Source: an uncultured Clostridia bacterium (lineage in GTDB: Bacteria; Bacillota; Clostridia; TANB77; CAG-508). From it: a stretch of 64,000 nt of DNA. The stretch spans positions 4,933 through 68,932 of the forward strand of contig CAKOSX010000005.1 of assembly GCA_934119935.1 (NCBI GenBank), given 5' to 3'. Each line of letters begins with the position of its first letter. Position 1 is the first letter of the stretch. The position numbers and the translations under genes are program-made. Positions 921 through 63,046 of this stretch are shown here, one piece after another. The notes beneath the pieces are model-generated. The model was not told where the DNA came from, ran no database searches, and worked only from the letters and a program-made list of their open reading frames with translations.

Positions 921-1030
921 TACATTTTAGGGACGGAGAAAAAAATGTACATTTTAATAGAATTAATATATACTGTACATTTTTTTCTCCGTCCCCGAAT
1001 TGTACCGAATTGTACACTAATTGTACAAAC
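921..1030. repeat. Family-A palindromic repeat pair with a short loop (GGGACGGAGAAAAAAATGTACA ... TGTACATTTTTTTCTCCGTCCCC), followed by three AATTGTAC sub-repeats
   Basis: The inverted copies were read directly at 930-952 and 974-996. The same motif recurs at 9249, 42051, 50578/50793, 62271/62455 and 63013. Confidence 0.85.
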
Positions 1031-2620: not shown

Positions 2621-2927
2621 AATCTAACACCTCTTTCTATTAAATTTTCAATGTGCATAAATATATATCTAATACTCTCTCTAAATATATAAATTTTATT
2701 TAATTATCTATCTATAATTTTTATATTAGCTATACTTTACATATACTATTTTATATGTATTATTGACAACTGTCAAGTATTTTTTGTAAAAGTATAATTA
2801 TAGCCTTTCAAAAAAATTACCATTTTTTTCAACATTTTTAACGCTTATTTATAACTTTATCTGTTGTGTCACATATAAAAAAGATGGTTACTATTTGTAC
2901 TGAACCCAAAAAGTTGGACAGTATAAA

Positions 2928-3749
2928 TTAGGCTACTAACTCGGAATGTTCTCTGTATTGAACAGGGGACATTCCTTTTAGTTTGCTCTTAATTCTTCTG
3001 TTATTATAATATTCTATATATTCAATTATATTATTTTCTAATTCTTCTATATTTTTATACTCTTTTTCTTTTATATAATAGAGCTCTGATTTTAATATTC
3101 CAAAAAAGTTCTCTGCACATGCATTATCTAAACAATTTCCTTTTCTTGACATACTTTGCCTAATACCCTTTTGTTCTAATAAATATTGATATTGTTTCAT
3201 TTGATACTGCCATCCCTGATCAGAATGTAATATTAAATTGGTATTATCTGGTATTTTATTAAATGCTTTTTTTAACATATCTACTACTTGATTAAATACT
3301 GGATGTCGAGATAAATTAAAGCTTATTACTTCACCGTTAAACAAATCTACTATTGGTGATAAATAAAGTTTATCATTATTAACTTTAAATTCCGTTACAT
3401 CTGTAGCCCATTTTTGGTTTGGCTTATCTGCCTTAAACTCTCTTTTTAATAAATTATCTGCTATTTTTCCTATTGTTCCTTGATATGAATTATATCTTCT
3501 TTTTGGTCTTTGAATGCTTTGTAATCCCATTATTTGCATTATTCTTGCAACTGTCTTATGGTTTATTATATAGCCACGATTTCTCATTTCTAATGTTATT
3601 CTTCTATAACCATAACGTCCTTTATTTTCATTAAATATAGATAAAATTTCGTCTTTTTCTGCCTTATATTTATCTTTTTTCTTCATTTTTTTTAGATTAT
3701 AATAGAATGTACTTCTTGGTATTTCTGCTAATTTTAATAATTCTCTCAA
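2928..3749 (-). CDS. IS3-family transposase OrfB (DDE integrase core), probably made as an OrfAB fusion
   Basis: rve-type core (WATDVTEF..., HSDQGWQY, NACAENFF). The frame stays open upstream (VIVVDELRHKYS) into the orfA overlap. Confidence 0.9.
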   Translation of the reverse strand: MRELLKLAEIPRSTFYYNLKKMKKKDKYKAEKDEILSIFNENKGRYGYRRITLEMRNRGYIINHKTVARIMQIMGLQSIQRPKRRYNSYQGTIGKIADNLLKREFKADKPNQKWATDVTEFKVNNDKLYLSPIVDLFNGEVISFNLSRHPVFNQVVDMLKKAFNKIPDNTNLILHSDQGWQYQMKQYQYLLEQKGIRQSMSRKGNCLDNACAENFFGILKSELYYIKEKEYKNIEELENNIIEYIEYYNNRRIKSKLKGMSPVQYREHSELVA

Positions 3750-3781
3750 GCTATATTTGTGCCTTAATTCATCGACAACAA

Positions 3782-4291
3782 TTACTTTTTCTTGTTCTCT
3801 CGCTTGATTCTTTCCTGAACTAAGGCATTTAATTTTTTTAAGTATTCATTCTCCATTCTAAGTCTTTGATTTTCTGCGATTAAATCTTCTTCAACTTCCT
3901 TGTTCAAATTTTTCTTTCTTGGTTTAGAACTCATATTTTTCGACCTTCCACGTCGTTCTATATACAAACCTTGTGGTCCTTCCTCATAATATATACGTTC
4001 CCATTTACTAACTACATAATCTCCTGCTAAATTAAAATGAATTGCTGTTTCATGACATGATAAATGGTTCTCATGCATGTATTCTACTACATTTTGTTTA
4101 AAATTTCCACTATAACTTGATCTCTGATTTTTCATTAATCCTACATATCCATTTTCTTTGTATTTTCTAACCCATCTAAGAACGGGGGAATATGCTATAC
4201 CAAAGTGGTCGGCTGCTGTTTGATATCCAACATTATTTTCTAAATAATATTTTATAACCTCTAATTTAAATTCACTCGAATATTTACTCAT
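3782..4291 (-). CDS. IS3-family transposase OrfA (HTH)
   Basis: Short HTH protein with a leucine-zipper-like C-terminus ending in NKKK, in the 0 frame upstream of orfB. Confidence 0.9.
   Translation of the reverse strand: MSKYSSEFKLEVIKYYLENNVGYQTAADHFGIAYSPVLRWVRKYKENGYVGLMKNQRSSYSGNFKQNVVEYMHENHLSCHETAIHFNLAGDYVVSKWERIYYEEGPQGLYIERRGRSKNMSSKPRKKNLNKEVEEDLIAENQRLRMENEYLKKLNALVQERIKRENKKK
3785..3793 (-). other. probable -1 programmed frameshift site (AAGAAAAAG) joining orfA to orfB
   Basis: The orfB frame is -1 relative to orfA, and an A-rich slippery run sits directly before the orfA stop. This is the usual IS3 architecture. Confidence 0.6.
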
Positions 4292-4362
4292 AAAAAATGA
4301 ACCCTCCTTGTTAAACTTTTTTGTCTAACATTTTGGGTTCACTTCAATTTGTGTAACCATCC

Positions 4363-8299: not shown

Positions 8300-9313
8300 T
8301 TATAATGTAGTAATTTCCACTCCCGTATAGTAATGTTTTATAATCTGTTCATAATTGTTCCCTTGTTTAGCCATGCTATCAGCACCGGTTTGACTCATTC
8401 CAACTCCATGGCCATATCCCGTTACCGAGAATTTTATTTCACTCTCATTTATTTCTGTTTTAAAGTTAGCAGACCTTAATCCTAATAAATTTCTTACTTC
8501 AACTCCGGATAATTCTAAGTTTCCAATTTTTATTGTTTTTACTCTATTTCCTTGAGTATATTCTAGTACCTTTATACAATCACTTTCATCATAATTTATT
8601 GTAAATTCAGGATGTTTTTCTTTCATCTTATTTTCGAATTCTTGCTTGGTAAATACTGCTTCAGATTGATATTGGCTGTATCCCTCTTCACCCGCAGTCT
8701 CCACACTTTGCAAATATGGTAGATTGGCTCCACCCCACACATTTGAAACTTCTTCGGTTTTTCCCCCGCTATTCGAATGAAAAAAAGCATCTATCACTTC
8801 TCCATTATATGTTACCACTTTTCTTGAAGTTGAATTTACAGCTTCTTTTATTTTATCCCAATTACTTTCTCTTTCACTTTCTTCCCATCTTGCGAACCTG
8901 TCTTCCTTCGAAATCCAAGCCTGACAACACGCAGAATTATCACAAATATCTGCTCCTTCATGTTTATTAGAGTTATGTTCAATAATATACCTTGTATATG
9001 TTCTTGCAACAACAGCTTGAGCCTTCAATGCTTCTTCTTCAAAATTTGCTGGCATCTCAGCAGACACAACGCCTAATAAGTATTCTTCCATTTTCATCTC
9101 TTCTATACTGTTATCTTTTGTATGCAAAATCTTCACTGTTAAATCTTCGCCCAATAGGGACGCCCCCTTTTGAGCGAAGTTTTCTTCATCATTTTGTTGC
9201 ACATTATTGCTGATTTCTTTGTCTTTTTCAAGTTCTCCGACTCGTTTTTTGTACAATTTTTTCTCCGTCCCCAAACTGTACAAATTGTCCAGTAAATATA
9301 ATCGGTATGGCAA
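8300..9313 (-). CDS. spoIID: stage II sporulation protein D (SpoIID/LytB lytic transglycosylase domain); 5' end disturbed by repeats
   Basis: VVARTYT, HSNSGGKTE and GHGVGMSQTGA motifs. The track start is a TTG, and the membrane anchor is in another frame (see 9228-9359). Confidence 0.85.
   Translation of the reverse strand: MPYRLYLLDNLYSLGTEKKLYKKRVGELEKDKEISNNVQQNDEENFAQKGASLLGEDLTVKILHTKDNSIEEMKMEEYLLGVVSAEMPANFEEEALKAQAVVARTYTRYIIEHNSNKHEGADICDNSACCQAWISKEDRFARWEESERESNWDKIKEAVNSTSRKVVTYNGEVIDAFFHSNSGGKTEEVSNVWGGANLPYLQSVETAGEEGYSQYQSEAVFTKQEFENKMKEKHPEFTINYDESDCIKVLEYTQGNRVKTIKIGNLELSGVEVRNLLGLRSANFKTEINESEIKFSVTGYGHGVGMSQTGADSMAKQGNNYEQIIKHYYTGVEITTL
9145..9179. repeat. Family-C hairpin repeat copy inside the spoIID linker coding region
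   Basis: CTTCGCCCAATAGGGACGCCCCCTTTTGAGCGAAG closely matches the reverse complement of the dnaK-dnaJ terminator hairpin at 52084-52116. Confidence 0.7.
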
Positions 9314-16800: not shown

Positions 16801-17020
16801 TTTAAAATCCTCATTTCATACTCTTCGACATTTTATATCATAATATTTTATTCTTCTCTATAATAACAATAAACGATGTTAAATGCAAGAGTATTTATCA
16901 AAAAAAATAGCAATTTAAGTTTAATTTTCTCACTTAAATCGCTTGATATTCACTATTATTCAAAAGTATAAAATTCACAAAAAATTCACAATTATCTTGT
17001 AAGCTTCATATACTAAAAAA

Positions 17021-17129
17021 CGATAGTTCTTATTTTTATAAGTTCTCAACATGTCGTGCTTGGTCGGAGCTCCTTCGGACTCCTCAAAAGGCGCACTTCC
17101 AGTTTCGGTTTAAAAAATAAGAACTATCG
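17021..17129. repeat. Family-B palindromic element, copy B1 (conserved ~60-nt core inside copy-specific inverted arms)
   Basis: Core CAACATGTCGTGCTTGGTCGGAGCTCCTTCGGACTCCTCAAAAGGCGCACTTCCAGTT. Arms CGATAGTTCTTATTTTT / AAAAATAAGAACTATCG. Confidence 0.85.
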
Positions 17130-17165
17130 CTTTTATCTAGGTGTCTTTCTTATATTGTTCACCTT

Positions 17166-19162: not shown

Positions 19163-20113
19163 ATGACAGAACGGCAACTCAAAATATTAAAGGAAGATTA
19201 TTTTTACATAACGGGAATAGTACGTGCAAAAACAGTTGACAAGTCTTTTATCGCAATCAAACTCGGCGTAAGTTGGCCTACTGTGAAGAAAAAAGTTGCA
19301 TCTTTGCTTAATGAAGGCATAATAATTAACGAAGGAGATTCTTATAAGTTCAATCCAGATATTTTAGACACATCATTATTTATTGGCATTTATTCTGATG
19401 GAATTAGCATTAATTGCATTGCACTGAATCTAGCCCAAGAAACTGTTGAATTAAGTGAAGTGCTCTCTAAGGAAAACTATGATAGTTTTATTGCAAGCAT
19501 TCATAACACAAACCTTAGTCTTTTGTCCAAAATCACATTTTTAGTTCATCTCTTCTCGCAAGAGGACAAAATACTAAATGTCGGCATTTCCATTCAGGGA
19601 ACAATAACTCTCTCAGGTGATGTCGTTATCTCCAATTCACATTTATCATTGAGCAGTTCTTCTTTCCTAGACAAATGTACACTTTTCGAAGCAGTACGAG
19701 CTAATTACTACATGTTAAAATCAGATCACTTACTAGATGATATGTGGTATCTGTATGTTGGCAATGACGCCATTTATCTGTTATCAAATGACACAATTAG
19801 TCCCGCCAAGGGATTAATTACTCTTGACACATGCGAGAAAAAGGCTATTAGCACGCTGTTTAAGCATAACACAGATCAAATTAGCCTTTTTGAGGCAAAA
19901 GACATCGTATTGCGTAAAATTATTCCTTTTATGCAGTTTGTACATCCTTCCATTTTAATCGTCGGAGGAGCTTTAGCCAGCCAGGAAGTTTCCAGTTTTG
20001 TCTATTCCGACTTTAAGGCTTTAAACATCAGCGAAGTAAAATTCGATGACAGCAACTTTACAAAGTCTATTGCATGCTTTGCGATGAGCAAGTTCTTCAA
20101 AGGTCGGGAATGA
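19163..20113 (+). CDS. putative winged-HTH regulator with a degenerate ROK/sugar-kinase-like C-terminal region
   Basis: N-terminal HTH-like segment (IAIKLGVSWPTVKKKVASLLNEGII). The remainder resembles ROK proteins only loosely. G+C looks slightly higher than the flanks. Confidence 0.35.
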   Translation: MTERQLKILKEDYFYITGIVRAKTVDKSFIAIKLGVSWPTVKKKVASLLNEGIIINEGDSYKFNPDILDTSLFIGIYSDGISINCIALNLAQETVELSEVLSKENYDSFIASIHNTNLSLLSKITFLVHLFSQEDKILNVGISIQGTITLSGDVVISNSHLSLSSSSFLDKCTLFEAVRANYYMLKSDHLLDDMWYLYVGNDAIYLLSNDTISPAKGLITLDTCEKKAISTLFKHNTDQISLFEAKDIVLRKIIPFMQFVHPSILIVGGALASQEVSSFVYSDFKALNISEVKFDDSNFTKSIACFAMSKFFKGRE

Positions 20114-20115
20114 TA

Positions 20116-20394
20116 TCATTCGCAATAAAAGAGTCGTATCTTCTGAATAGATGGTACGACTCTTTTAGGCATTTTTATCGTTTTCCTGACGTCAGGAAAA
20201 TGTTCAGTTACGCTAATACCAGTGTTTTCACAGGCAATCATTGCTTTATTTATTACCTTTTCAAAGTTCTCCCATTTATTATACTCTAATATCTTTTGTA
20301 ATTCTCTTCCATACCAATACTCAATTCAATTCTCGTCAATGTGTCTAGTGTCTTCAAACGTTTGATTTTCTCTCTTCGCATTTCTCATCCCCAT
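20116..20394 (-). pseudogene. DinD-like (DNA-damage-inducible protein D) 5' fragment with an in-frame TGA and a truncated C-terminus
   Basis: Manual translation gives MGMRNAKRENQTFEDTRHIDEN*IEYWYGRELQKILEYNKWENFEKVINKAMIACENTGISVTEHFPDV... This matches the conserved DinD N-terminal block, then diverges and stops. Confidence 0.6.
20130..20166 (+). terminator. hairpin terminator after the ROK-like gene
   Basis: AGAGTCGTA/TACGACTCT stem followed by TTT. Confidence 0.6.
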
Positions 20395-20535
20395 CACTCC
20401 ATTTACATTTAATGGAATTAAATATAAAACGTTTGTTTGTGTTTGTCAAGCATTTTTTATATTTTCCTAAAAAAAAAGTTGTATTCTTCTAAATAGATAA
20501 TACAACCATTTTTCACTTAATACATATATAAATTT

Positions 20536-20620
20536 TGGTGGAGATGAAGGGAGTTGCCAAGCCGCGTCGGGAAAATTGTCCACTGGACAATTTTCTATTC
20601 CTCCTTTTCGACTCCCTAGA
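20536..20620 (-). repeat. distal att-like unit: 21-nt tmRNA 3'-end core plus a 64-nt conserved arm
   Basis: TGGTGGAGATGAAGGGAGTTG, then GCCAAGCCGCGTCGGGAAAATTGTCCACTGGACAATTTTC... Nearly identical to 25063-25147. Confidence 0.8.
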
Positions 20621-20926
20621 ACTTTATATTATTCATTTAAGTTATATATAAAGTTCTAGTTTTTCTTTCTGTTCTGGTGCCATCGAGGTAGTTATCTACA
20701 ACTTTTTGGCTCTCATAACGATTGAGACAAATATCAATCAATTTATATATAAATTAACAGATTTTTTTATAAAAATCAAGAAATTTTATAAAAAAATCTT
20801 GCGAAATTTTGTTTCTTTTATATTGATTAATTTTAAATTCTATGTTATACTAGCTGACATAGGAAATGATGATAAGCAGATGTGGTTTTGCCACCAATTA
20901 TACGAAATATCGTAAGAGAGGTGGTG

Positions 20927-21046
20927 ATGTTTATGGTTAAAGTGATACTATTTTTTATAATATCATTTATGTTATCTTTAACATTAAACGTTGCCTTGAC
21001 AGCAGTTCTGTATAAGAACTGGGTTGATAAGCAACTACATAAATAA
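20927..21046 (+). CDS. small hydrophobic peptide, type I toxin-like (39 aa, or 37 aa from the second ATG)
   Basis: GAGGTGGTG SD. MFMVKVILFFIISFMLSLTLNVALTAVLYKNWVDKQLHK has a single TM helix and a basic tail. A paralogue lies at 59271-59372. Confidence 0.6.
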   Translation: MFMVKVILFFIISFMLSLTLNVALTAVLYKNWVDKQLHK

Positions 21047-21049
21047 AAA

Positions 21050-21135
21050 AGCTCACATCTGTAACTTTGGCGAGTTAGGTGTGAGTTTTTACAACTAATT
21101 TCGGCAAAACCACGTTTGTGGGTTTGTCATTTCCT
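21050..21135 (-). ncRNA. predicted antisense (antitoxin-like) RNA convergent with the peptide gene
   Basis: Minus-strand promoter TTGACT-17-TATAAT (21170-21142). The start lies near AGGAAATGAC, and the RNA shares the bidirectional hairpin at 21050-21085. Confidence 0.45.
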
Positions 21136-21190
21136 ATATTTATTATACACAGATATTTAAGAAAAGTCAAATAAAATTTCGCAATTAAAA

Positions 21191-21646
21191 TTATTTACTA
21201 AAAAATCTTATTATAAATTTCCATACTTTTTTATACCATTTAATATTATTTATTTCTATTAAATCTAATTTTTGCTCTTGTTCGGTAGCATCCAAAATAA
21301 TTTTTTTCTTATTATTCTTAAAAATATTATCAGAATTATATCTTTCTTTCTTTTTTTCTTCTAATTGCATTCTATCATAATTTTGTTTAGTAATAATTTT
21401 TTCTTTTTGTAATTCTGTAGCCCAATAATCTCTAAATAAAATCGCAATAATTGCTTTTGCAGTTTTTGATACATTTTGTTCATCTAAAGTTTTATTTGGA
21501 TTATATTTAAATATATATTCTTTATTGTGATTTGTTTCGAAAAGCTCTATTTTAGAATTTGGTATTTTTTCATAATCTTCTTTGGAAATGTATTTTAAAA
21601 TTTCTAAAACTTCACTATAAGCATTTGCATATTCAACACTTACCAT
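21191..21646 (-). CDS. hypothetical protein (151 aa), translationally coupled to the upstream 787-aa gene
   Basis: The ATG lies 1 nt after the upstream stop. N-terminal helical region and Lys-rich C-terminal half. No family recognised. Confidence 0.6.
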   Translation of the reverse strand: MVSVEYANAYSEVLEILKYISKEDYEKIPNSKIELFETNHNKEYIFKYNPNKTLDEQNVSKTAKAIIAILFRDYWATELQKEKIITKQNYDRMQLEEKKKERYNSDNIFKNNKKKIILDATEQEQKLDLIEINNIKWYKKVWKFIIRFFSK

Positions 21647-21647
21647 T

Positions 21648-24011
21648 TTATCCTCCTATAGTTGCTTGATTTTCCTTTGTTTTATCTAAATCTCTTTCTT
21701 GACTTTCAATTGTTCTTTCAGTTTCATCTATTAAAATAGTATCAGATATTTCATCAATAACTTGTTTTCCTAATTTTTGTCCATTTGTTAATTGACTATC
21801 TTTAAATCTATCTTTACACATCTCTATAAATTCTAAATGAGTAAAAATCTTTTTATAGTCCATTCCAAACTCTTGCAACCACTTCTGAATTCTTTCTTTG
21901 TTTTCTTCTGTTGTAATTATTCCAACAAATCTGTCATCATCTTCCTTAAAATCAATTGATTGAACTCCTCCTGGTACTTCAGAGCCAAAATTTTCTAAAC
22001 CTTTATAAATCTCATCTTTTTTTGGATAAAATGCAAATATAGCTCCATAAGGTCTGGCTGAGTCGATTCCTGGGTCTGCAAATTCAACAGGAACATGAAT
22101 ATCATATTTATTAGCAACAGCAATTTGTATAGCAAACGATTTGAAATCTACACCTCTTTCTTCAGGTGTTTTTAGTCCACCAGTCTTTAATATTTCATAT
22201 ATTGCTGCAATATCATTATTCCCGTGAAATACCATAGGAATGCCATCTGGTATAATTTCAGCAACTTGCTTGCTAAATGACTGACGAATTCTTTTCCTTT
22301 CTTCTAAATCTTCTGGAATATCTTCTCTCATATATGAAAGTTGATTTTCTAGCTCATTTATTCTTCTTTTTATCTTTTCAACTCGACTACCATATGCCTC
22401 TGCTTTTCTTGTTTCATTATTCTTTATCGCTTCATCATACATTGTTTTATATTTTGTTAAACTATTTTTTTGACTTTCTAAAATTTTTCTAACATACATT
22501 TTTTTATTTTCAAGCATAATTGTTTGATTCCTTTCTAAGCCAGAGTATAAGCCTGCATACCTTGTTTGAGCTATCTCTCTTTGCAATCCTTGTTCATAAG
22601 TTTTTCTATTAGTTCTTTCTAAATTATGATCTAATGTATCACTTATAGACCAATATGTTATTCCATCTAACTGTACTCCAGTTTCTTCAATAGCTTTTGA
22701 AATTTCATCCATTCTCATTGATTTAAACTCTGCTATACTTCCAATAGTAATACCACTTTTACTTATTTTACTATTAATAAGTTCTACCAAATCCTGCTCA
22801 GAACGTATTTTTCCATTTTCATCAAACATAAATCTTTCTGGTAAACACATATCAAATTCTGTTATTTGAGTTCTAATTCCTAATTGTTCTAATCTTTTAA
22901 AGGCCTCAAAACATTGTCTAATATCATCTGTATTTTGTGTCATCTCAATATGCATCTGTGTACCAATTGTATCAATTAATCCAGGAGCTAGTCCATTAAT
23001 TCGAGATAATTGTTCTATTACAACTTGTCTTCTTTCAGGATTTTCCAAAAACGGTTCATTATATACATACGTTACTCCATCTGGTTTGTTTTCTAATGCA
23101 TACTGAAAAATGCTAACTAATTCTTCGTTGGAAATTCCGTATAATTCTTGCCACATATTTCTGTATGGTTCATCAAAAGAAATTATCTCATTAAGCAAAT
23201 CTACAGAACATATTACTCCTTTTCCATTTATCTTATGCTCCTCATTATATTTTGAAATAAAATCTATAGATTTCTTTACATATTTTTGCAGTTCTCCTAA
23301 AACATATTCTTTTTGCTTGCCTATTAAATGTTCTTCCATAGTTTGTTTATCTAATAATGTATGATATCTTGCATACATTCCATTTTTATAGCAAAAATCT
23401 AGACCCCTTTGAGCATAATAAAAATCATATTTTTCCATATTTGGTATATGTTCATCATACATTTTTTTTGTAACATCATAATATCTTCCTGCTCCTATTA
23501 GAAGAGTATTATGATTAGATAAAATATCATTTAATCCGGATAATTCTTCATAAGTTATGCTTGTCATTTGATCTCTTTCTGTTCCAATAAATCTATGAGC
23601 TTTTTCTGTAAAAATATCATAACTTTCAGGGTGTTCTGCTTTTAATTTTTTCTTAATACCTTCATAACCATTATTTTGAAATACTGAAATGTATGAATCT
23701 ACTTCATCAGCAGTAATTCCTGAATGCTTTAATGCTAATTTCAAAACACTTCTTCTGTTTTTAATACTTTGTTCCATTGATACTAATGTGCTCTTATATT
23801 GTTCGACAAGCATTCTTTTTATATCTTCAATATCGTTATCATTCCAACTAGTTAAATCTTCTTCAGAAATATTTAACTGTGAACAATTAATTGCAAAATC
23901 TTTTAATTCTTCTATATTTTTACATTGAATTATACTTAATAATTCAATAGTTTCTGAATTCAAATAAATTCCATTTATTTGACTCTCTAACTTTAATGAA
24001 AATTCTTGCAC
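21648..24011 (-). CDS. large multidomain island protein: GH10-like TIM-barrel region, coiled coil, and a possible ADP-ribosyltransferase/Tpt1-like C-terminal domain
   Basis: Blocks YDFYYAQRGLDFCYKNGMYARYHTLLD, VDLLNEI, YVYNEPF, IDTIGTQMHI, QITEFDM and GITYWSISD parallel the GH10 signature blocks. The C-terminal segment reads VFHGNNDIAAIYEILKTGGL. No signal peptide. Confidence 0.55.
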   Translation of the reverse strand: MQEFSLKLESQINGIYLNSETIELLSIIQCKNIEELKDFAINCSQLNISEEDLTSWNDNDIEDIKRMLVEQYKSTLVSMEQSIKNRRSVLKLALKHSGITADEVDSYISVFQNNGYEGIKKKLKAEHPESYDIFTEKAHRFIGTERDQMTSITYEELSGLNDILSNHNTLLIGAGRYYDVTKKMYDEHIPNMEKYDFYYAQRGLDFCYKNGMYARYHTLLDKQTMEEHLIGKQKEYVLGELQKYVKKSIDFISKYNEEHKINGKGVICSVDLLNEIISFDEPYRNMWQELYGISNEELVSIFQYALENKPDGVTYVYNEPFLENPERRQVVIEQLSRINGLAPGLIDTIGTQMHIEMTQNTDDIRQCFEAFKRLEQLGIRTQITEFDMCLPERFMFDENGKIRSEQDLVELINSKISKSGITIGSIAEFKSMRMDEISKAIEETGVQLDGITYWSISDTLDHNLERTNRKTYEQGLQREIAQTRYAGLYSGLERNQTIMLENKKMYVRKILESQKNSLTKYKTMYDEAIKNNETRKAEAYGSRVEKIKRRINELENQLSYMREDIPEDLEERKRIRQSFSKQVAEIIPDGIPMVFHGNNDIAAIYEILKTGGLKTPEERGVDFKSFAIQIAVANKYDIHVPVEFADPGIDSARPYGAIFAFYPKKDEIYKGLENFGSEVPGGVQSIDFKEDDDRFVGIITTEENKERIQKWLQEFGMDYKKIFTHLEFIEMCKDRFKDSQLTNGQKLGKQVIDEISDTILIDETERTIESQERDLDKTKENQATIGG

Positions 24012-24086
24012 TTTTTCACCTTCTATTGTTTAATTCAAAAATATTATATCAATAACTTTTAATTTTTACAATGATTTAGAACATTT

Positions 24087-24383
24087 TTAAGTATAATTAA
24101 TATTGTTAAACAAATATAATGCTACTTTATTTTGCTCTGTTGTTTCCATTTCCATAAGTTTAGCCATTGCAAACATTACAATCTTATATTTAGCAAAGTT
24201 TCTAAGTGTAATTCTATACTCTTCATCAATATCTTTTAGCATAGTATCAAATTTTTCATAATTGTCTTTAGTATTATATGACCATTTACTTTGACTCATA
24301 CATATTGCTAGTCTTAATTTATCTTTTATATCCATGTCATTTATCCTATTTATTAAATATTTTATTTTTTCACTTTCCAACAT
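24087..24383 (-). CDS. hypothetical protein (98 aa)
   Basis: ORF only. Same strand as, and upstream of, the 787-aa gene. Confidence 0.4.
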   Translation of the reverse strand: MLESEKIKYLINRINDMDIKDKLRLAICMSQSKWSYNTKDNYEKFDTMLKDIDEEYRITLRNFAKYKIVMFAMAKLMEMETTEQNKVALYLFNNINYT

Positions 24384-24391
24384 TGCACTCC

Positions 24392-24948
24392 TTACTTTAA
24401 TTCCATATTATTTTTCTTTTTAACATTAGTATTATTAAGTTCATCTGCTGGTTTAATTTTTCTTGATATATCATTAACAATTCGATTATCATTGTCATCA
24501 AAAATACCATTTTTATATAGGTCATCGCTAACATATTTATACTTTTCATCTTTATCAAATCCAATTTTATTTTGGAAGTATTTAATTAACTTATGCCAAA
24601 ATCCTTTGAATTTTTGTAGCTCTGTTTTAAGCTTTGCTTTTTCAGTTTGTAATTTATTAATAATCTTATCTTTAGTAGATAATTCGCTTTTCAAACTGAT
24701 AATTTGATCTTTTTAGATAAATTAGAAATATAAACATCATTTGAATAATTGAAAACTAACAAATTAATGTTTTTTACAATTACCTTATGTGGTTCGATAT
24801 AAGATAAATTGGTCTTTTCAATTTTTCTAATACTACCTTTTATAAAAGTAGGAGTTACTTTTGAAAACTCACATATAAATTCTAGTCTTTGCTTTAAACT
24901 TTCCTCAAATTGTATTTCCTGTTTAATTATCTTCATTACAGACACCAT
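24392..24948 (-). pseudogene. frameshifted island ORF (85-aa and 100-aa pieces)
   Basis: The two ORFs abut in different frames around an A5 run (TCTAAAAAG). A one-nucleotide change would join ...YISNLSKK to DQIISLKSELSTKDK..., a continuous coiled coil. Confidence 0.45.
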
Positions 24949-25198: not shown

Positions 25199-25560
25199 TG
25201 GTGGAGATGAGGGGAGTTGAACCCCTGTCCAATATTCTTTCCATATACGTTTCTCCGAGTGCAGTTTGTTATTTAATTTTCCCTGTAAAATTCATTAACA
25301 AACAAACGGATTTTACAAGTAACCATTTGTTTTACCTACTGTTTTAATGGCTAAAACAGTGTTGTTATCCTACTAATTGACGCCTTATCTAAGACCGTAG
25401 GCCTTCTTAGTAAGACGGGCCGCCTAAGCTTAGGCAGCGTATGCTAATTCTGTATTATCAGCGTTTATTTTTATTTCTGCTTTTTTATAGTGGCCGAAGC
25501 AGCCATCCACTACTCGCTACATATACTTCTGGGATACTGTCGAAAACCAAATACATCCCC
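25199..25560 (-). ncRNA. ssrA: transfer-messenger RNA (tmRNA)
   Basis: The 5' end GGGGATGTATTTGGTTTTCGACAG pairs with the 3' end CATCTCCACCA. T-arm AGGGGTTCAACTCCCCT. Tag reading frame GCT GAT AAT ACA GAA TTA GCA TAC GCT GCC TAA encodes ADNTELAYAA. Confidence 0.93.
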
Positions 25561-25769: not shown

Positions 25770-26885
25770 ATGAATCAAAAAGAATTAGTTAATCCTAGCG
25801 CCGTTCCGACTCTCAAGTTTCGGAGTAAGTTTTTAAGGTTGTTTGAGACCTTATCCGAGAGCACTCAAAAGGAGTTGTACTCGATTATCGAGAAATTTGT
25901 AAACGAGCAGAATGACGTGTATGCAGCCGACATCCTGTGGAAGATTACTTATAACTGTTTTTGGGGGCTTAGCATTCTTGGTCTGAAGGTAAAGGATGAA
26001 ATCTTTAAAGACATCCTTGTTCTTGAGGAGAAATACCGTTCTCCTCACGCAAGGCCGCTCGAGATTCCTCCTGAACTTGTGACACCACTTAAGAACGAAC
26101 TTAGGTTTCAGCGGAAAAAATTTCATCCAGATTTTCTAATTGTTCATTTCCCTGAGGAATGTGAACAACCTTTCAAGAAGCTTTTGGATGCTTCTGCCGA
26201 TCCAGTTCTAACATACGTCGCATGTTATCATTGTTACGATGTTTGTTACTTATCCAATGAGCAGGAAGTTGAAAGAATTCTATTCCTGCTAAAAAGCAAA
26301 GTTAAAGAGAACGTATTTGGTGGAATCCGAAGCTTGAAGTTTAGTTACGAACAGGCTCAATATTTCATGAAGTTAGCACCTTACATTGCTAACTATCTGG
26401 AAGCTCTTTGGCAATCAATTCTTCCAGAAAAAGAACCTGTTTTGAACACCCCGCTTGCAGCTCCGCTCGAAGCATGGCGTGATTCTCACTCCGAAGCACT
26501 ATCGTCTGATGAGCTTCCTTTTGATGAAAGCTCTGCCGAAGAAGTTTTTGGCGAGAACAACTCCACACAACAACCTGCTATGGATGAAATGCCCGAGGAC
26601 ATTGATGAGTCTCTCCAATCTCAGCTATCTTGCCTAAAATCAGCACTTTCTGTTGATTTAGTGGCAAAAAGACCTCTGTCTGTGCACAATATTCTTTCAG
26701 ACAGAGAGCTTTTCCAAAAGCTGTTGGAAAAGGCCTACGATGACTCTTTCAAAAAGTCACTAGGCGAGTTTGCTCAGATTGTGTATGCTCTAAAAAGCAG
26801 GGGCTACGATTACAAAGAGGCAATTGTTGTTTTACCCAGAATCGAAGCAATAATTGGTTCCATGTCTATTCTGGAAGGGGCTTAA
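25770..26885 (+). CDS. hypothetical protein (371 aa) with an acidic, probably disordered central segment; compositionally foreign
   Basis: AAGGAG SD. G+C is visibly higher than in surrounding genes. Followed by a strong hairpin terminator. No family recognised. Confidence 0.6.
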   Translation: MNQKELVNPSAVPTLKFRSKFLRLFETLSESTQKELYSIIEKFVNEQNDVYAADILWKITYNCFWGLSILGLKVKDEIFKDILVLEEKYRSPHARPLEIPPELVTPLKNELRFQRKKFHPDFLIVHFPEECEQPFKKLLDASADPVLTYVACYHCYDVCYLSNEQEVERILFLLKSKVKENVFGGIRSLKFSYEQAQYFMKLAPYIANYLEALWQSILPEKEPVLNTPLAAPLEAWRDSHSEALSSDELPFDESSAEEVFGENNSTQQPAMDEMPEDIDESLQSQLSCLKSALSVDLVAKRPLSVHNILSDRELFQKLLEKAYDDSFKKSLGEFAQIVYALKSRGYDYKEAIVVLPRIEAIIGSMSILEGA

Positions 26886-29502: not shown

Positions 29503-29617
29503 ATGAGATATATTAACTTTTTAGAAATTCAACTGGAAGTGCGCCTCTTGAGGAGTCCTAAGGAGCTCCGACCAAGCACGACATGTTGATATTTCGTAAA
29601 AAGTTAATATATCTCAT
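29503..29617. repeat. Family-B palindromic element, copy B2 (opposite orientation to B1)
   Basis: Conserved core at 29530-29589. Copy-specific arms ATGAGATATATTAACTTTTTA / TAAAAAGTTAATATATCTCAT. Confidence 0.85.
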
Positions 29618-34477: not shown

Positions 34478-34594
34478 ACTTTGAAAATAATTTCAATTTT
34501 TGAATAAATCAACTGGAAGTGCGCCTTTGAGGGGTCGAATGAGCCCCGACCAAGCACGACATGTTGATTTTTCAAAAATAAATTTTTTCAAAGT
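34478..34594. repeat. Family-B palindromic element, copy B3
   Basis: Conserved core at 34510-34568 with copy-specific AT-rich inverted arms. Confidence 0.85.
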
Positions 34595-42046: not shown

Positions 42047-43051
42047 TTAATTGTACAATTTTTCCTCCGTCCCCAAAATGTACCCTACATCAATCTTATT
42101 TCCTCTTAGAAAATCAGAAATTGCCATTCTCTTTGAGTTTTCTCCTTGTATTTCAAGCACTTGTAGTATTCCTTCATTCGCCTTTATGTATAAGCCCTTT
42201 TTTTCGTCTGAAAACAATACGGTCCCGGCTTGCATTTTGTTTAAATGGTATTTGTATTCTTCTAATTCTTGAAATTTTTCTAATAATTCATTTTCTGTTA
42301 ATGTTTGTACTTTCCAGAATTTTATCTTTTTGCCGTCTAGAAATGTGTATGCTCCCATTATTGGATTTAGTCCTCTTACGAGATTTTTTATCTCTTGAGC
42401 AGTCTTGTTTTCCCAGTCTATTTTTGCCATTTCTTTAGATAGCATTGGAGCCATAGTTCCTACTTCTGGTTGTTTAGTTCTTGTGGCAGTTCCATTCTCA
42501 ATTTCTTTTACTGTTTTTATTAATAGATTTGCCCCTATCATTTTTAATCTATCCCACAATTCACCAGTAGTTTCATCTTCTCCTATTTCGACTTCTTCTT
42601 TTAATATCATGTCTCCAGTATCCATTCCAGCATTCATAAACATAGTGGTTACACCTGTTTTCTTATCTCCGTTTAGTACAGCCCACTGGATTGGTGCAGC
42701 GCCTCTATATTCTGGCAATAAAGATCCATGAACGTTTACACATCCATATTTTGGAATATCTAATAATTCCTGTGGCAAGATTTTTCCATAAGCCACAACA
42801 CAAATTAAATCTGGATTTAATTTCTTTACCTCCTCCAAAAATTCTGGATTATTTCTAACTTTTACAGGTTGATAAACTTGCAATTTTTTCTCTATTGCAT
42901 ATTCTTTTACAGGAGAAGCTACCATCTTCATTCCTCTTCCTTTTGGTTTATCTACATTTGTAACAACCCCAATTATATCATATTTTGCTTCATATAATGC
43001 TTTAAGCGACTCTAACGCAAAATCCGGTGTTCCCATAAATAAAATTCTCAT
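42047..43051 (-). CDS. fmt: methionyl-tRNA formyltransferase (last ~8 codons and the stop are supplied by a family-A repeat)
   Basis: Full-length Fmt similarity (HGSLLP, RGAAPIQ). The C-terminal ...GTEEKLYN is encoded by the repeat at 42051-42085. Confidence 0.93.
   Translation of the reverse strand: MRILFMGTPDFALESLKALYEAKYDIIGVVTNVDKPKGRGMKMVASPVKEYAIEKKLQVYQPVKVRNNPEFLEEVKKLNPDLICVVAYGKILPQELLDIPKYGCVNVHGSLLPEYRGAAPIQWAVLNGDKKTGVTTMFMNAGMDTGDMILKEEVEIGEDETTGELWDRLKMIGANLLIKTVKEIENGTATRTKQPEVGTMAPMLSKEMAKIDWENKTAQEIKNLVRGLNPIMGAYTFLDGKKIKFWKVQTLTENELLEKFQELEEYKYHLNKMQAGTVLFSDEKKGLYIKANEGILQVLEIQGENSKRMAISDFLRGNKIDVGYILGTEEKLYN
42051..42085. repeat. solo Family-A repeat overlapping the fmt 3' end
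   Basis: TTGTACAATTTTTCCTCCGTCCCCAAAATGTACCC. Confidence 0.85.
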
Positions 43052-50577: not shown

Positions 50578-50830
50578 AGTACAATTTTTACAATTTTGTA
50601 CAATTTGGGGACGGAGAAAAAAATGTACGTACTAAATTAATAAATATAAAAAAAAATAATACTTTAATATTTTATAAAACATCAACACGTTGTGCTTGTT
50701 CGGAGCTACTTCGGGCTCCCCAAAAAGTGCATTGCCGGTTTCGTTTTTAAAATATTAAAGTATATTATTTTTCGAGAAGAAAAAATACAAAAACGTACAT
50801 TTTTTTCTCCGTCCCCAAATTGTACAAAAA
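50578..50830. repeat. composite nested palindromic element: family-A terminal inverted repeats enclosing family-B copy B4
   Basis: The A arm ...TTGTACAATTTGGGGACGGAGAAAAAAATGTACGTAC (within 50578-50632) has its inverse at 50793-50830. The B arms plus core lie at 50656-50769. Confidence 0.85.
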
Positions 50831-60479: not shown

Positions 60480-62270
60480 ATGGCTTTTGATGGTATTGTA
60501 ACTAAAGCAGTCGTTTCAGAATTGAATACTTGTCTTATTAATGGAAAGATAAATAAAATTTTTGAACCTAATAAAAACGAGATTTTATTGGGTATTTATT
60601 CTGGTGGAAAAAATTATTGTTTGAATATTTCTATAGATTCAGTAAACTATAGAATTAATTTAACTACCAGTTCTAAGCCTAACCCTCAAAATGTTTTGAA
60701 TTTTTGTATGGTTCTTAGAAAACATTTGACTGGTGGAACTATAAAAAAAATCTATTCTACTGGCTTGGAACGTATTGTTTTTATTGATGTTGATGTATAC
60801 AACGAGCTTAATGATTTAATTACAAAAACTCTTGTTGTTGAACTTATGGGAAAGCACAGCAATGTTATCCTACTAAATTCAGAGCATATAGTTATCGATA
60901 GCTTACGTCATCTAAATAAGTTTGATAATTCAAATAGAGACATCTTCCCTGGTTCGAAATATTTGAATATTGAAAGTGATAAAAAGGACTTTCTTGCAGT
61001 TAGAACTTTTGATGAATTTTATAGAGATGTCACAATAGATTGCGGAAATTTACCATCAACATTATCTAAAATTTACAATGGATTTGGAAAGAAAAATATA
61101 TCATATTTATTAGAAACATTGAATATTCCAACAGCTGTTTCTACTAATGATTTGAAAAAAGTTTACTCATATTTAAAAGATTTATTTGCAAGCATGCCTG
61201 ATAATGTTGTTTTAAAAGAATATGCCGCTGACAAGAAAGACTATTTTGCTTATAACTCTATAAATGACGGACTTTCTGTAAATTTCTTTTTAGATGATTT
61301 TTATACTTCAAAAGAACAAGCTGAGCAGTTTAAACAATATAGAGATACAGTATTAAAGCTTGTTTTAAATCATGTTGGAAAAATAAAAGAAAGAATTAGC
61401 ACAATAGATTCAAAAATTGCCGATTGCACAAATGCTGAAAAATACAGATTATATGGTGAGTTAATAACCTCTAACTTATACAGAATCCCAGATTATCCAC
61501 AGTCTGAAGTTACTTTGGAAAATTATTATGATAACAACAATTTAATTACTATACCTTTAGATGAGAAATTTAGTCCATCTAAAAACGCCAAGAATTTTTT
61601 CAAGAAATATAGAAAATTACAAAATACAATAGCTATTGTAGAAAAGCAAAAAGAATTGGCCGAAGCCGAACTATCATACTTGGATAGCATTGTATACGAA
61701 TTAGAAAATGTTTCCACAATTGAAGATATAGACAATATTTATTCTGAAATTTGTGATAATTTAATTTTTGGAAAAAATGCAAATACAGTAAATAATCATG
61801 TTTATAATAGCCACGATAAAATTGCTAATTCAAAGAATTCAAAATCTAATAAGCAGTCAAGCTCAAGCAATATGCCGGAGAAGCGTGATATTGATGGTTA
61901 CACTGTTTACATTGGAAAAAATAATAAACAAAATGATTATTTAACTTGCAGACTCGCACAAAATTCTGACATTTGGTTCCACACAAAAGATATACATGGA
62001 AGCCACGTTGTATTAAAAGTAGATAGTAACCCTAATGCCTCTCATGTAAACTCAGAAAATCCTGGTATATCTAATACATTCAGTGTTCCAGACGCCGTTT
62101 TATATAAATGTGCATCTGTTGCAGCATACTACAGCAAAGCCAGAATGTCTCAGAATGTGCCAGTTGACTATACCTTAATAAAATACGTAAAGAAACCTAA
62201 TGGTGCAAAACCAGGAATGGTAATATACACAAATAATAAAACCATATATGCAAATCCACAAAATATATAA
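60480..62270 (+). CDS. rqcH: ribosome quality control protein RqcH (NFACT / FbpA family)
   Basis: NFACT-N domain, coiled coil and NFACT-R motif (DIWFHTKDIHGSHVVLK). Confidence 0.9.
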   Translation: MAFDGIVTKAVVSELNTCLINGKINKIFEPNKNEILLGIYSGGKNYCLNISIDSVNYRINLTTSSKPNPQNVLNFCMVLRKHLTGGTIKKIYSTGLERIVFIDVDVYNELNDLITKTLVVELMGKHSNVILLNSEHIVIDSLRHLNKFDNSNRDIFPGSKYLNIESDKKDFLAVRTFDEFYRDVTIDCGNLPSTLSKIYNGFGKKNISYLLETLNIPTAVSTNDLKKVYSYLKDLFASMPDNVVLKEYAADKKDYFAYNSINDGLSVNFFLDDFYTSKEQAEQFKQYRDTVLKLVLNHVGKIKERISTIDSKIADCTNAEKYRLYGELITSNLYRIPDYPQSEVTLENYYDNNNLITIPLDEKFSPSKNAKNFFKKYRKLQNTIAIVEKQKELAEAELSYLDSIVYELENVSTIEDIDNIYSEICDNLIFGKNANTVNNHVYNSHDKIANSKNSKSNKQSSSSNMPEKRDIDGYTVYIGKNNKQNDYLTCRLAQNSDIWFHTKDIHGSHVVLKVDSNPNASHVNSENPGISNTFSVPDAVLYKCASVAAYYSKARMSQNVPVDYTLIKYVKKPNGAKPGMVIYTNNKTIYANPQNI

Positions 62271-62493
62271 TTGTACAAAGTGGGGACGGAGAAAAAAAAG
62301 TACATTTTCATAATAATCAAAAGAATCAACACTATGATATTTTTAAAACGAAACCGGCAGTGCGCCTTTGAGGGGTCCGATAGGAGCCCCGACCAAGCAC
62401 AACGCGTTGAGTCTTTATAAAATATCATGGTATTGATTTTATATACAGAACTTTCGTACATTTTTTTCTCCGTCCCCATTTTGTACAAATAAT
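62271..62493. repeat. composite nested palindromic element: family-A terminal inverted repeats enclosing family-B copy B5
   Basis: The A arm TTGTACAAAGTGGGGACGGAGAAAAAAAAGTACA has its inverse at 62455-62493. The B arms plus core lie at 62324-62438. The element starts on the base after the rqcH stop. Confidence 0.85.
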
Positions 62494-63019: not shown

Positions 63020-63046
63020 TTTTTCCTCCGTCCCCAAAATGAACGC
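63013..63046. repeat. solo Family-A repeat providing the SD and start codon of the DUF4116 gene
   Basis: The minus strand reads GGGGACGGAGGAAAAAATGTACAC. Confidence 0.85.

What the first reader, a model, noticed from the sequence alone, without database searches (positions are those of the whole stretch)
17021..17129. Family-B repeats: a conserved ~60-nt core always embedded in long, copy-specific inverted arms (5 copies in 64 kb)
The five copies are at 17021-17129, 29503-29617, 34478-34594, 50656-50769 and 62324-62438. They share the core CAAC(A/G)(T/C)GT(C/T)GTGCTTG(G/T)TCGG(A/G)GCT...(loop)...C(T/C)CC(T/C)CAAA(A)(G/A)G(C/T)GCA(C/T)T(T/G)CC(A/G)GTT. The apical stem covaries between copies (GGAG/CTCC versus GGGG/CCCC), and the loop varies (CTTCGG, CTTAGG, ATTCGA, TATCGG). 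Each core sits between 17-27 bp AT-rich arms that are complementary within a copy but unrelated between copies. This is the opposite of a normal miniature inverted-repeat transposable element (MITE), which has conserved ends and a variable interior. Core orientation relative to the flanking minus-strand genes is mixed (B1 and B4 one way; B2, B3 and B5 the other). Three explanations seem possible. The element could insert into pre-existing hairpin loops. Its insertion could generate inverted target duplications. Or it could be a structured RNA or DNA hairpin whose basal stem evolves by compensatory change.
Basis: seen in the sequence. Interest (0 to 1): 0.7.

Follow-up and report, generated by a model that had tools for sequence, protein, structure and literature searches.

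The report
Flipping hairpin repeat with conserved centre
This is a small, non-coding hairpin repeat found between housekeeping genes in one group of uncultured human-gut Clostridia; its stem arms are rebuilt at each site and its centre repeatedly flips, so it is a good natural example of hairpin-driven DNA rearrangement but probably not a new gene or regulator.

Summary
A purpose-built covariance model finds exactly five copies in the window (75-98 bits; the next hit scores 16.5). None matches any Rfam family. Scans of public genomes and metagenomes found the core only in three related gut Clostridia species (Clostridium sp. CAG:245 group), at about 14 intergenic sites, always just after a gene.

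New findings:
- The core, or the whole interior between the outer inverted repeats, lies in both orientations relative to the flanking genes at 4 of 7 multiply sampled sites. This holds even among contigs encoding an identical neighbouring protein.
- Arm mismatches are resolved by copying one arm onto the other, and orthologues show multiple fully compensated changes.
- Cores at different sites are 86% identical on average (up to 98-100%). Outer arms are at random-level identity and uncorrelated with core similarity.
- Related genomes lacking the element at sites B1-B3 have no pre-existing hairpin there. Two comparisons suggest one arm is native sequence and the other its inverted copy.
- B4 and B5 sit inside a second palindrome family, which in a relative is a simple hairpin just after dnaJ.

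Best reading: a selfish or structural palindromic repeat shaped by replication template switching. I rate it a new variant of a known kind, of moderate interest.

The parts
17016..17134 (+). B1 hairpin element. Arms 17016-17037 and 17113-17134; core 17040-17112 on the + strand. It lies 3' of the transketolase C-terminal-part gene (stop at 17166) and upstream of an ABC ATPase gene.
   Evidence: (I9). The orthologous site is empty in L040, L029 and L063. The core is inverted in L001 and L032.
29503..29617 (-). B2 hairpin element. Arms 29503-29523 and 29597-29617 (21 nt, 100% complementary); core 29523-29595 on the - strand. It lies between the stop of the M24 (Xaa-Pro-type) peptidase gene and efp.
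   Evidence: (I10). There are 27 orthologous copies plus 3 flipped ones. The element is absent from relatives at 87-94% EF-P identity.
34478..34594 (-). B3 hairpin element. Core 34503-34573 on the - strand. It lies between the stop of the DUF212 gene and the ribosome-binding site of formate-tetrahydrofolate ligase.
   Evidence: It is about 198/200 identical across genomes whose flanks are ~92% identical. The alternative allele carries an unrelated 60-nt spacer, which aligns colinearly with the right-arm side.
50650..50772 (+). B4 hairpin element. Arms 50650-50678 and 50744-50772; core 50676-50748 on the + strand. It is nested inside a family-A palindrome between dnaJ and rsmE.
   Evidence: (I5). 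Against the 94%-tier orthologues its core differs at 8-9 of 59 positions while its arms differ at 0-2 of 26.
62324..62438 (-). B5 hairpin element. Arms 62324-62348 and 62414-62438; core 62344-62416 on the - strand. It is nested inside a family-A palindrome between the convergent rqcH (NFACT) and DUF4116 genes.
   Evidence: (I11). The whole interior is inverted in L008, L010, L098-L101 and L108.
50594..50829 (.). Family-A palindrome enclosing B4. Its 37-nt perfect arms are 50594-50630 and 50793-50829 (TTTTGTACAATTTGGGGACGGAGAAAAAAATGTACGT).
   Evidence: I1. In L077-L079 the orthologous site has only AGGACGGAGAA-GATGTATAT-TTTTCTCCGTCAC followed by TTTT.
62268..62491 (.). Family-A palindrome enclosing B5. 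Its arms are 62268-62303 and 62456-62491 (92% complementary). These arms bound the segment that inverts between strains.
   Evidence: (I2).
921..1004 (.). Family-A palindrome without a B element. About 24 nt separate the two inner GTAC motifs. It shows that family A exists independently of B.
   Evidence: I3.

Best explanation
Family B is a low-copy, lineage-restricted, non-coding palindromic repeat. It resembles MITEs and REPs in being a selfish or merely structural hairpin parked just 3' of genes.

Its unit of identity is a ~60-nt GC-richer imperfect hairpin, (T)CAAC...GTTG(A). The long AT-rich arms are mostly not inherited with it. I infer that the core's own hairpin promotes replication template switching, meaning fold-back copying of the nascent or complementary strand. 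That single process would do four things:
- make an inverted copy of the adjacent local sequence, giving each site its own arms;
- keep the two arms complementary by copying one onto the other;
- extend or rewrite the arms over time;
- invert whatever lies between the arms, giving the mixed orientation.

Cores stay similar between sites because insertions are recent, and possibly because cores are exchanged between copies by gene conversion.

As RNA the element would simply be a very stable 3' hairpin. No orientation-specific function is needed to explain the data.

Shown directly: repeat family, narrow distribution, inversion polymorphism, arm homogenisation, decoupling of core and arm similarity, absence of hairpins at empty sites, and nesting in family A.

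Inferred: template switching as the mechanism, local origin of the arms, and lack of function.
For: Distribution:
- Five clean copies in the window; the next CM hit is noise.
- The strict-pattern scan found the core in only three related GTDB species and 64 real human-gut metagenome loci.
- None in viral contigs.
- About 14 distinct sites in all.

Inversion:
- Both orientations occur at 4 of 7 multiply sampled sites.
- Breakpoints lie in the B arms at B1 and the GCAAT site, and in the A arms at B5.
- Contigs encoding the identical RqcH protein P0246 carry either orientation: L108 versus L106, L107, L109 and L110.

Arm homogenisation:
- A B2 arm position that is mismatched (A,C) in the common allele is (C,C) in L007 and (A,A) in the window.
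- B1 versus L001 shows three fully compensated pair changes in about 17 pairs. By my own estimate about 0.1 would be expected under independent substitution.
- Arm mismatches show no RNA-type strand bias: 19 G.U versus 30 A.C.

Decoupling of core and arms:
- Identity between sites is 0.86 for cores and 0.59 for outer arms (random 0.55), with r = 0.12.
- B1 and the common B2 allele have 98-100% identical cores and unrelated arms.
- Within a site, arms and core have similar diversity. Gradual divergence therefore cannot explain the arms in a clade this young.

Origin of the arms:
- No hairpin exists at empty B1, B2 and B3 sites.
- An A element lacking the core keeps only the left arm.
- The B3 empty allele is colinear with the right-arm side only.

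Weak constraint on the core:
- The B4 core differs at 15% of positions between close orthologues while its arms do not.
- A diverged core at L014:9470-9540 still has perfect 17-bp arms.

Literature: template switching between inverted repeats is documented to homogenise arms, invert spacers, and create or extend stems (PMC8604942, PMC8794818, PMC13100816).
Against: - Template switching is inferred from patterns, not observed. Recombination between arms, or selection on an RNA hairpin, could give similar patterns.
- Several sites share related arms, so whole hairpins are sometimes copied.
- At B1 the indel relative to the empty site is larger than the hairpin (~150-170 nt) and is bounded by short direct repeats (AAATAA or TTAT). 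That could reflect conventional transposition or a deletion.
- The 'one arm is native' evidence rests on one clear paralogous comparison (L069) and one marginal alignment (p~0.04). A precise deletion between TATTTT repeats would look the same.
- B3 is far more conserved than its flanks.
- The core's loop nucleotides are highly conserved across sites, which hints at sequence-specific recognition.
- How the core reaches new sites is unknown.
Confidence: 0.5

Rival explanations
1. A core-only mobile element with a dedicated, still unidentified enzyme, for example a single-strand HUH-type transposase. It would recognise the conserved imperfect hairpin and insert it into the tips of hairpins or palindromes such as terminators. 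Alternatively its insertion chemistry would itself generate the inverted target duplication.
For: - The conserved unit has sharp boundaries, (T)CAAC...GTTG(A), with covarying end pairs: CAAC/GTTG, AAAC/GTTT and CGAC/GTCG.
- Loop nucleotides are near-invariant.
- Cores are 98-100% identical in unrelated arms.
- 4 of about 14 sites are nested in family-A palindromes. One of those, in a relative, is a simple hairpin after dnaJ.
- The core-less A element in L069 has one arm only.
Against: - The window contains no candidate enzyme. Its only transposase is an IS3 with unrelated ends.
- Empty B1-B3 sites show no target hairpin.
- In B4 the core does not sit at the A palindrome's tip but inside a further 63-nt interior.
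- Copy number is low.
- The rest of the genome could not be searched.
Confidence: 0.2
2. A structured RNA, either a cis-acting 3'-UTR or intergenic element or a small RNA. Its conserved core would be the functional part and its basal stem would be maintained by selection through compensatory substitutions.
For: - 91% of cells are paired in a three-helix model, and 5 pairs show double changes, above all shuffled and slid controls.
- Two near-invariant U.G pairs exist only in the 'sense' orientation.
- Many copies carry a C(UUCG)G-type apical loop.
- B3 is about 198/200 identical where its flanks are ~92% identical.
- All copies are positioned to be co-transcribed with the upstream gene.
Against: - The core is found sense or antisense to the same flanking genes in closely related strains. 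A cis-acting RNA function would therefore be lost half the time.
- There is no conserved promoter or terminator signal of its own.
- There is no Rfam match, even at E <= 10.
- The B4 core decays quickly.
- The arms show no G.U strand bias.
- Diversity within the element is about the same as in the flanks at B2 and the GCAAT site.
- The covariation counts come from related sequences aligned to the model.
Confidence: 0.15
3. A programmed invertible switch (inverton). A site-specific recombinase would flip the segment between the inverted repeats to change expression of neighbouring genes (phase variation).
For: - Inverted repeats of 18-37 bp flank a 75-160-bp segment.
- Both orientations occur among near-identical strains.
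- The organisms are gut bacteria, where invertons are common. This last point rests on my own background knowledge and on PMC7641763.
Against: - The window contains no invertase.
- The B arms are not a shared recombinase site; they differ between sites.
- No promoter lies in the segment beyond chance.
- B5 lies between convergent gene ends, where a switch has nothing to control.
- The outer hairpin is the same in both orientations.
Confidence: 0.07

Closest known systems
REP / REPIN elements (repetitive extragenic palindromes and their inverted doublets, mobilised by RAYT transposases; PMC3116915, PMC3337134)
   Same: Short, non-coding, intergenic, hairpin-forming and dispersed, with structure preserved by paired changes. 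Family A in this window (conserved inverted arms, variable spacer) has the REPIN layout.
   Different: In B the centre is conserved and the arms vary, the reverse of a REPIN. Copy number is very low (about 14 sites). No RAYT was found in the window, and the rest of the genome could not be tested. There is no GTAG-type REP signature.
Bacterial MITEs and ERIC/RU-type intergenic repeats (PMC10969869, PMC3184786, PMC2759123)
   Same: About 110-120 bp, non-coding, an imperfect palindrome, located in transcribed intergenic regions, in either orientation, and present or absent between close relatives.
   Different: There are no conserved terminal inverted repeats (outer-arm identity is random). There is no clear target-site duplication. 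No parent IS shares its ends; the IS3 in the window is unrelated.
Template-switch mutations at inverted repeats (PMC8794818, PMC8604942, PMC13100816)
   Same: All the described footprints are present: multi-base 'compensatory' changes, homogenisation of arms, inversion of the spacer or loop, and creation or extension of perfect stems.
   Different: Those papers describe the process in rRNA or microRNA genes and in yeast coding or promoter DNA. I found no description of it as the shaping force of a dispersed bacterial repeat family with a conserved centre.
Invertons (invertible DNA switches of gut bacteria; background knowledge, and PMC7641763 for Bacteroides)
   Same: Inverted repeats flank a short segment that is found in both orientations among strains.
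   Different: No recombinase gene lies nearby. The B repeats are not a common recognition site. There is no promoter or controlled gene.
Insertion sequences that target palindromes (for example IS1397/ISKpn1 inserting into REP loops, and class C group II introns inserting after terminators). These are recalled from background knowledge and were not tested here.
   Same: One repeat is nested inside the hairpin of another (B inside family A).
   Different: B has no coding capacity. The nesting is not at the exact tip of the A palindrome in B4. Most B copies are not inside a recognisable pre-existing hairpin.

Membership tests
Any Rfam RNA family | Match to a curated covariance model | tested here: not met
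   The whole window at gathering thresholds returns only tmRNA and two tRNAs. The B1 region at E <= 10 returns only chance hairpin hits, best E = 0.51 to a plant miRNA model.
MITE | Terminal inverted repeats conserved among copies | tested here: not met
   Outer-arm identity between sites is 0.59 against 0.55 for shuffled arms, while cores are at 0.86. Only some sub-lineages share arms.
MITE | Target-site duplication of fixed length | tested here: inconclusive
   Short direct repeats occur at indel boundaries: AAATAA or TTAT at B1 and TATTTT at the B4-type junction. They are AT-rich, differ between sites, and are equally compatible with microhomology-mediated deletion.
MITE | A parent autonomous IS sharing the ends | tested here: not met
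   The only transposase in the window is an IS3 (rve plus HTH, 2890-4352) with ends TGAACCCAAAA..., unrelated to the A or B arms. The rest of the genome was not available.
MITE | Small, non-coding, dispersed, and present or absent between relatives | tested here: met
   110-120 bp, about 14 sites, with empty alleles at B1, B2 and B3.
REP/REPIN | Conserved palindromic arms in inverted orientation around a variable spacer | tested here: not met
   B has the opposite layout. Family A does meet this feature.
REP/REPIN | Associated RAYT (HUH tyrosine transposase) gene in the genome | not testable with these tools
   None is present among the 65 window ORFs (>=80 aa) scanned against Pfam. A whole-genome protein scan of the host was not possible.
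Inverton | Inverted repeats flanking a segment found in both orientations | tested here: met
   This includes contigs with identical RqcH protein but opposite orientation.
Inverton | Both orientations within one population, and a cognate invertase | not testable with these tools
   No read data were available. No serine or tyrosine recombinase is present in the window.
Inverton | A regulatory payload (a promoter, or an orientation-dependent terminator) acting on a neighbouring gene | tested here: not met
   Promoter-like and terminator-like sites are no more frequent than in shuffles. B5 lies between convergent gene ends.
Template-switch-shaped hairpin | Multi-base compensated changes, arm homogenisation, loop or spacer inversion, and stem creation from adjacent sequence | tested here: met
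   three compensated pairs; a mismatch fixed both ways; inversions; one arm native. These are pattern-level only; the mechanism itself was not observed.
Intrinsic terminator | GC-rich short stem-loop followed directly by a U tract | tested here: not met
   The scanner finds none at B1, B2 or B4. The stems are long and AT-rich, and T runs follow only some copies. The minimal family-A hairpin after dnaJ in L077-L079 does look like a terminator.

The most novel reading that the evidence does not exclude
The ~60-nt core is a new kind of minimal mobile element that needs no terminal repeats. After it is copied into a site, its own hairpin primes fold-back synthesis. That builds a site-specific stem from the neighbouring DNA, and afterwards keeps that stem perfect and flips the core. 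In other words, the element would manufacture its own palindrome, and it would tend to nest within other palindromes such as family A or terminator hairpins.
Probability: 0.2. Interest if true: 0.75.

Novelty: new variant of a known kind. Interest (0 to 1): 0.42.

Why it matters
If the reading is right, this family is a compact natural case in which one process, template switching at a hairpin, explains three things usually attributed to different causes:
- 'compensatory' stem evolution, normally read as proof of RNA function;
- site-specific inverted repeats, normally read as transposon ends or target duplications;
- DNA inversion between strains, normally read as recombinase-driven phase variation.

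That is a caution for covariation-based RNA discovery and for inverton calling in gut metagenomes. It also offers a tractable system, with dozens of strain-level alleles in public data, for measuring the rates of these events.

It does not appear to be a new gene, regulator or defence system.

Tried and rejected
- **Rfam.** Gathering thresholds and permissive E-values both gave nothing.
- **Viral contigs.** No copies, so there is no phage link.
- **Own promoter or terminator.** Consensus scans were at chance level.
- **Cognate transposase in the window.** Only an IS3 with unrelated ends was found.
- **Arms as an independent repeat family without the core.** In about 700 kb of related DNA, arm sequences match only at B sites, apart from 13-17-nt AT-rich chance hits.
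- **Family-A remnants around every B.** Clear at only 4 sites and weak at 2. B is therefore not always inside A.
- **RNA strand signal in the arms.** G.U is not enriched over A.C.
- **Stronger purifying selection on the element than on its flanks.** Seen only at B3 and the L004 site, not at B2 or the GCAAT site.
- **Inversions as assembly artefacts.** Judged unlikely for three reasons. The perfect arm stretches (18-37 nt) are shorter than the final k-mers named in many contig ids (k119, k141). Flipped alleles recur in independent assemblies. They also carry their own substitutions. Read-level proof is lacking.
- **Chimeric contigs.** Three contigs (L016, L033, L054) join the left side of one site to the right side of another. 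They were set aside as probable assembly chimeras, although real recombination between copies is not excluded.
- **An A-only state at the B5 site.** A search in more distant relatives failed because synteny breaks there.

Full report
**1. The observation**

The five elements are at the stated coordinates.
- An 18-nt degenerate core pattern finds the five sites with no mismatch, where 0.01 hits are expected by chance.
- I built a covariance model from nine copies. Run over the whole window with filters off, it gives five hits of 75-98 bits. The next best is 16.5 bits. There are therefore five copies and no hidden degenerate ones.
- Each element folds into one long hairpin of -35 to -48 kcal/mol (z -5 to -8) on either strand.
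- The arms are 21-29 nt and 84-100% complementary.
- The window has 31% G+C, while the core has about 50%.
- Nothing in Rfam matches, at gathering thresholds or at E <= 10.

**2. Context**

All five copies are intergenic and begin about 5-40 nt after a stop codon of a housekeeping gene:
- B1 follows the transketolase C-terminal-part gene.
- B2 follows an M24 peptidase gene and precedes efp.
- B3 follows a DUF212 gene and precedes formate-THF ligase.
- B4 follows dnaJ and precedes rsmE.
- B5 lies between the convergent rqcH and DUF4116 genes.

The other window ORFs of at least 80 aa that I scanned are ordinary chromosomal genes, plus one IS3 copy whose ends are unrelated to the repeat.

B4 and B5 each lie inside a second repeat, 'family A'. 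Its 36-37-nt inverted arms read TTGTACAA..GGGGACGGAGAAAAAAATGTAC. A third A copy at 921-1004 has no B.

**3. Census**

- A strict pattern scan of one genome per GTDB species found the core in only three related uncultured gut Clostridia: Clostridium sp. CAG:245 and two MAGs.
- The metagenome scan gave 65 loci, almost all from human gut. One of them (L043, GC-rich) is a chance hit.
- Viral contigs gave none.
- Clustering by outer flanks gives about 13 sites. The model search adds one more, with a diverged core but perfect 17-bp arms.
- Caveat: the collection scans needed exact pattern matches, so more diverged relatives could have been missed.

**4. The centre flips**

In 4 of the 7 sites sampled more than once, the core is in opposite orientations relative to the same flanking genes:
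- B1: window and L055 versus L001 and L032.
- B2: 27 copies versus 3.
- GCAAT site: 16 copies versus 1.
- B5: see below.

Where the breakpoints fall:
- At B1 and the GCAAT site the flanks align right up to the B arms, so the breakpoints are in the arms.
- At B5 everything between the family-A arms is inverted, non-palindromic spacers included.

Contigs encoding exactly the same 596-aa RqcH protein carry either orientation: L108 versus L106, L107, L109 and L110. Other protein tiers are fixed one way or the other.

Perfect arm stretches are shorter than the assemblers' final k-mers, and flipped alleles recur in independent assemblies with their own substitutions. I therefore do not think they are artefacts, but read-level proof is missing.

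**5. The arms are kept complementary by copying**

- Between the window and L001, three arm pairs differ on both sides and remain Watson-Crick (G-C to A-T, T-A to G-C, G-C to A-T), against one or two single-sided changes. With about 17 pairs and roughly 15% divergence, my own estimate is that only about 0.1 such pairs would be expected from independent changes.
- At B2, a position that is an A/C mismatch in the commonest allele is C/C in L007 and A/A in the window. One mismatch was thus resolved in both directions.
- Arm mismatches show no excess of G.U over A.C in the core's sense orientation (19 versus 30). That argues against selection on one RNA strand.
- A copy whose core has drifted (55.9 bits) still has perfect arms.
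- At B4 the core differs at 8-9 of 59 positions from close orthologues, while the B arms differ at 0-2 of 26.

**6. Core and arms have separate histories**

- Between sites, mean identity is 0.86 for the core, 0.73 for the inner 14 nt of the arms and 0.59 for the outer 17 nt. Shuffled arms give 0.55. Core similarity does not predict arm similarity (r = 0.12 for outer arms, 0.07 for inner).
- B1 and the common B2 allele have 98-100% identical cores and unrelated arms.
- Within a site, arms and core show similar nucleotide diversity, about 0.03-0.05.
- The host clade is young: sampled flanks are 84-97% identical.
- Gradual divergence therefore cannot have erased arm similarity. Most arms must differ from the time of insertion, or have been rewritten in large steps.
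- Conversely, B4 and L069 share arms and the family-A context but carry different core types, GGAG versus GGGG. Cores are therefore sometimes replaced, which suggests gene conversion between copies.
- Some sites do share related arms (L004~L014~L030~GCAAT site, L005~L045), so whole hairpins are sometimes copied too.

**7. Empty sites**

- *B1.* Three relatives with ~92-94% identical flanks lack about 170 nt, including both arms. The indel is bounded by short AT-rich direct repeats.
- *B3.* Relatives have an unrelated-looking 60-nt spacer. It aligns colinearly with the right-arm side of the filled allele only, with p~0.04, which is marginal.
- *B2.* Relatives at 87-94% EF-P identity have short spacers holding only the efp promoter region, with no hairpin.
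- *B4.* Genomes in the 82% RsmE tier have, right after dnaJ, only AGGACGGAGAA-GATGTATAT-TTTTCTCCGTCAC followed by TTTT. This is a minimal family-A hairpin that looks like the dnaJ terminator. The outer palindrome may therefore pre-date the insertion. The polarity is not proven, because the next outgroup has lost synteny.
- *L069.* This locus holds two adjacent family-A copies that share a ~63-nt interior with B4. The first copy contains B. The second lacks the core and the right arm but keeps the left-arm sequence, with junction AATATTTT^T(C/T)(G/A)AGAAG. This is what an insertion accompanied by an inverted copy of the upstream flank would look like. A precise deletion between TATTTT repeats would look the same.
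- *Arms elsewhere.* No arm sequence occurs away from a B core in about 700 kb of related DNA.

**8. Structure of the core**

- On 38 distinct sequences a three-helix model is 91% paired. Five pairs change on both sides: CAAC/GTTG versus AAAC/GTTT versus CGAC/GTCG, a Y-R pair, and GGAG/CUCC versus GGGG/CCCC. This exceeds all shuffled and slid controls.
- Two U.G pairs are almost invariant in one orientation, and many copies have a UUCG-type apical loop.
- These points favour a real hairpin, and weakly favour an RNA reading.
- However, the sequences are closely related and were aligned to the model.
- One diverged copy supports a different pairing register, GCUC/GAGC replacing GUGC/GCAC.
- Double changes are also what template switching produces in a single step (PMC8794818).

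**9. Interpretation**

The published footprints of polymerase template switching between inverted repeats are all present here:
- arm homogenisation;
- multi-base 'compensatory' change;
- spacer or loop inversion;
- stem creation and extension (PMC8604942, PMC8794818, PMC13100816).

I therefore favour the following model, at about 0.5 confidence. Family B is a small selfish or structural palindromic repeat. Its hairpin-forming core seeds fold-back copying of local sequence, which gives site-specific arms. The same process later keeps the arms paired and flips the centre. Cores remain similar because insertions are recent and because cores are occasionally exchanged.

As RNA, the element would be a very stable hairpin at the 3' end of the upstream transcript in either orientation. 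No orientation-specific function is required, and frequent flipping argues against one.

Rivals:
- a core-only mobile element with an unidentified enzyme that targets or creates palindromes (0.2);
- a functional structured RNA (0.15);
- a recombinase-driven inverton (0.07).

**10. Comparison with known families**

- It behaves like REP/REPIN, ERIC-type and MITE-type intergenic palindromes. It fails the defining features of MITEs (conserved ends, parent IS) and has the reverse layout of a REPIN.
- Family A, by contrast, has the REPIN layout.
- It shares the inverted-repeat and two-orientation features of invertons, but lacks a nearby recombinase, a common repeat site and a regulatory payload.
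- I class it as a new variant of a known kind, of moderate interest. The unusual points are the conserved centre with locally made arms, the nesting inside another palindrome family, and the high inversion rate without an evident recombinase.

Noticed in passing
window 921-1004, 50594-50829, 62268-62491; single arms near 9251-9288(-), 42058-42074(-), 63019-63035(-): There is a second repeat family, 'A', with 36-37-nt inverted arms TTGTACAA..GGGGACGGAGAAAAAAATGTAC around a variable interior (a REPIN-like layout). Solo arm-like copies also occur. The one at 63019-63035(-) provides the GGAGG ribosome-binding site and ATG of the DUF4116 gene.
   Followed up: partly
window 996-1030; L069 about 1690-1720 and 2010-2030: Short tandem repeats of (G)AATTGTAC, two to three copies, sit at the outer ends of family-A elements. 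They look like iterated binding sites.
   Followed up: no
window 2890-4352: There is an IS3-family insertion sequence: an HTH orfA at 3782-4291(-), an rve orfB at 2928-3749(-), and ~31-nt terminal inverted repeats TGAACCCAAAA.../...TTTTGGGTTCA. It is unrelated to families A and B.
   Followed up: yes
window 17135-17165 (between B1 and the transketolase stop): The window and L055 carry an extra ~33-nt segment (GTGAACAATATAAGAAAGACACCTAGATAAAAG on the - strand) flanked by ATAAAAG direct repeats. L001 and L032 lack it. This is another small indel right next to the hairpin.
   Followed up: partly
L045 1780-1970: There is a partial tandem duplicate of core plus right arm, followed by an isolated 5' core fragment (CGACATGTTGTGC). 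This is a complex local rearrangement at a B site.
   Followed up: no
L021, L031 and L062 (flipped B2 allele), about 40 nt left of the hairpin: The flipped B2 allele also carries a ~40-nt insertion inside or next to the left arm, bounded by a direct repeat of (AT)GAGATATA. Its origin is unknown.
   Followed up: no
L016, L033, L054: These contigs join the left flank and arm of one B site to the right arm and flank of another. They are either assembly chimeras at the repeat or real recombination between copies.
   Followed up: no
window 25199-25560(-) and 25770-26885(+): There is a tmRNA gene (tag ADNTELAYAA). It is followed by a 371-aa ORF with no Pfam match and then tRNA-Trp. Several further ORFs at 19163-24948 also lack Pfam matches.
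   Followed up: no
whole window: GC skew is strongly negative along all 64 kb and nearly all genes are on the - strand, so the + strand is probably the lagging-strand sequence here. B copies occur in both orientations regardless.
   Followed up: no
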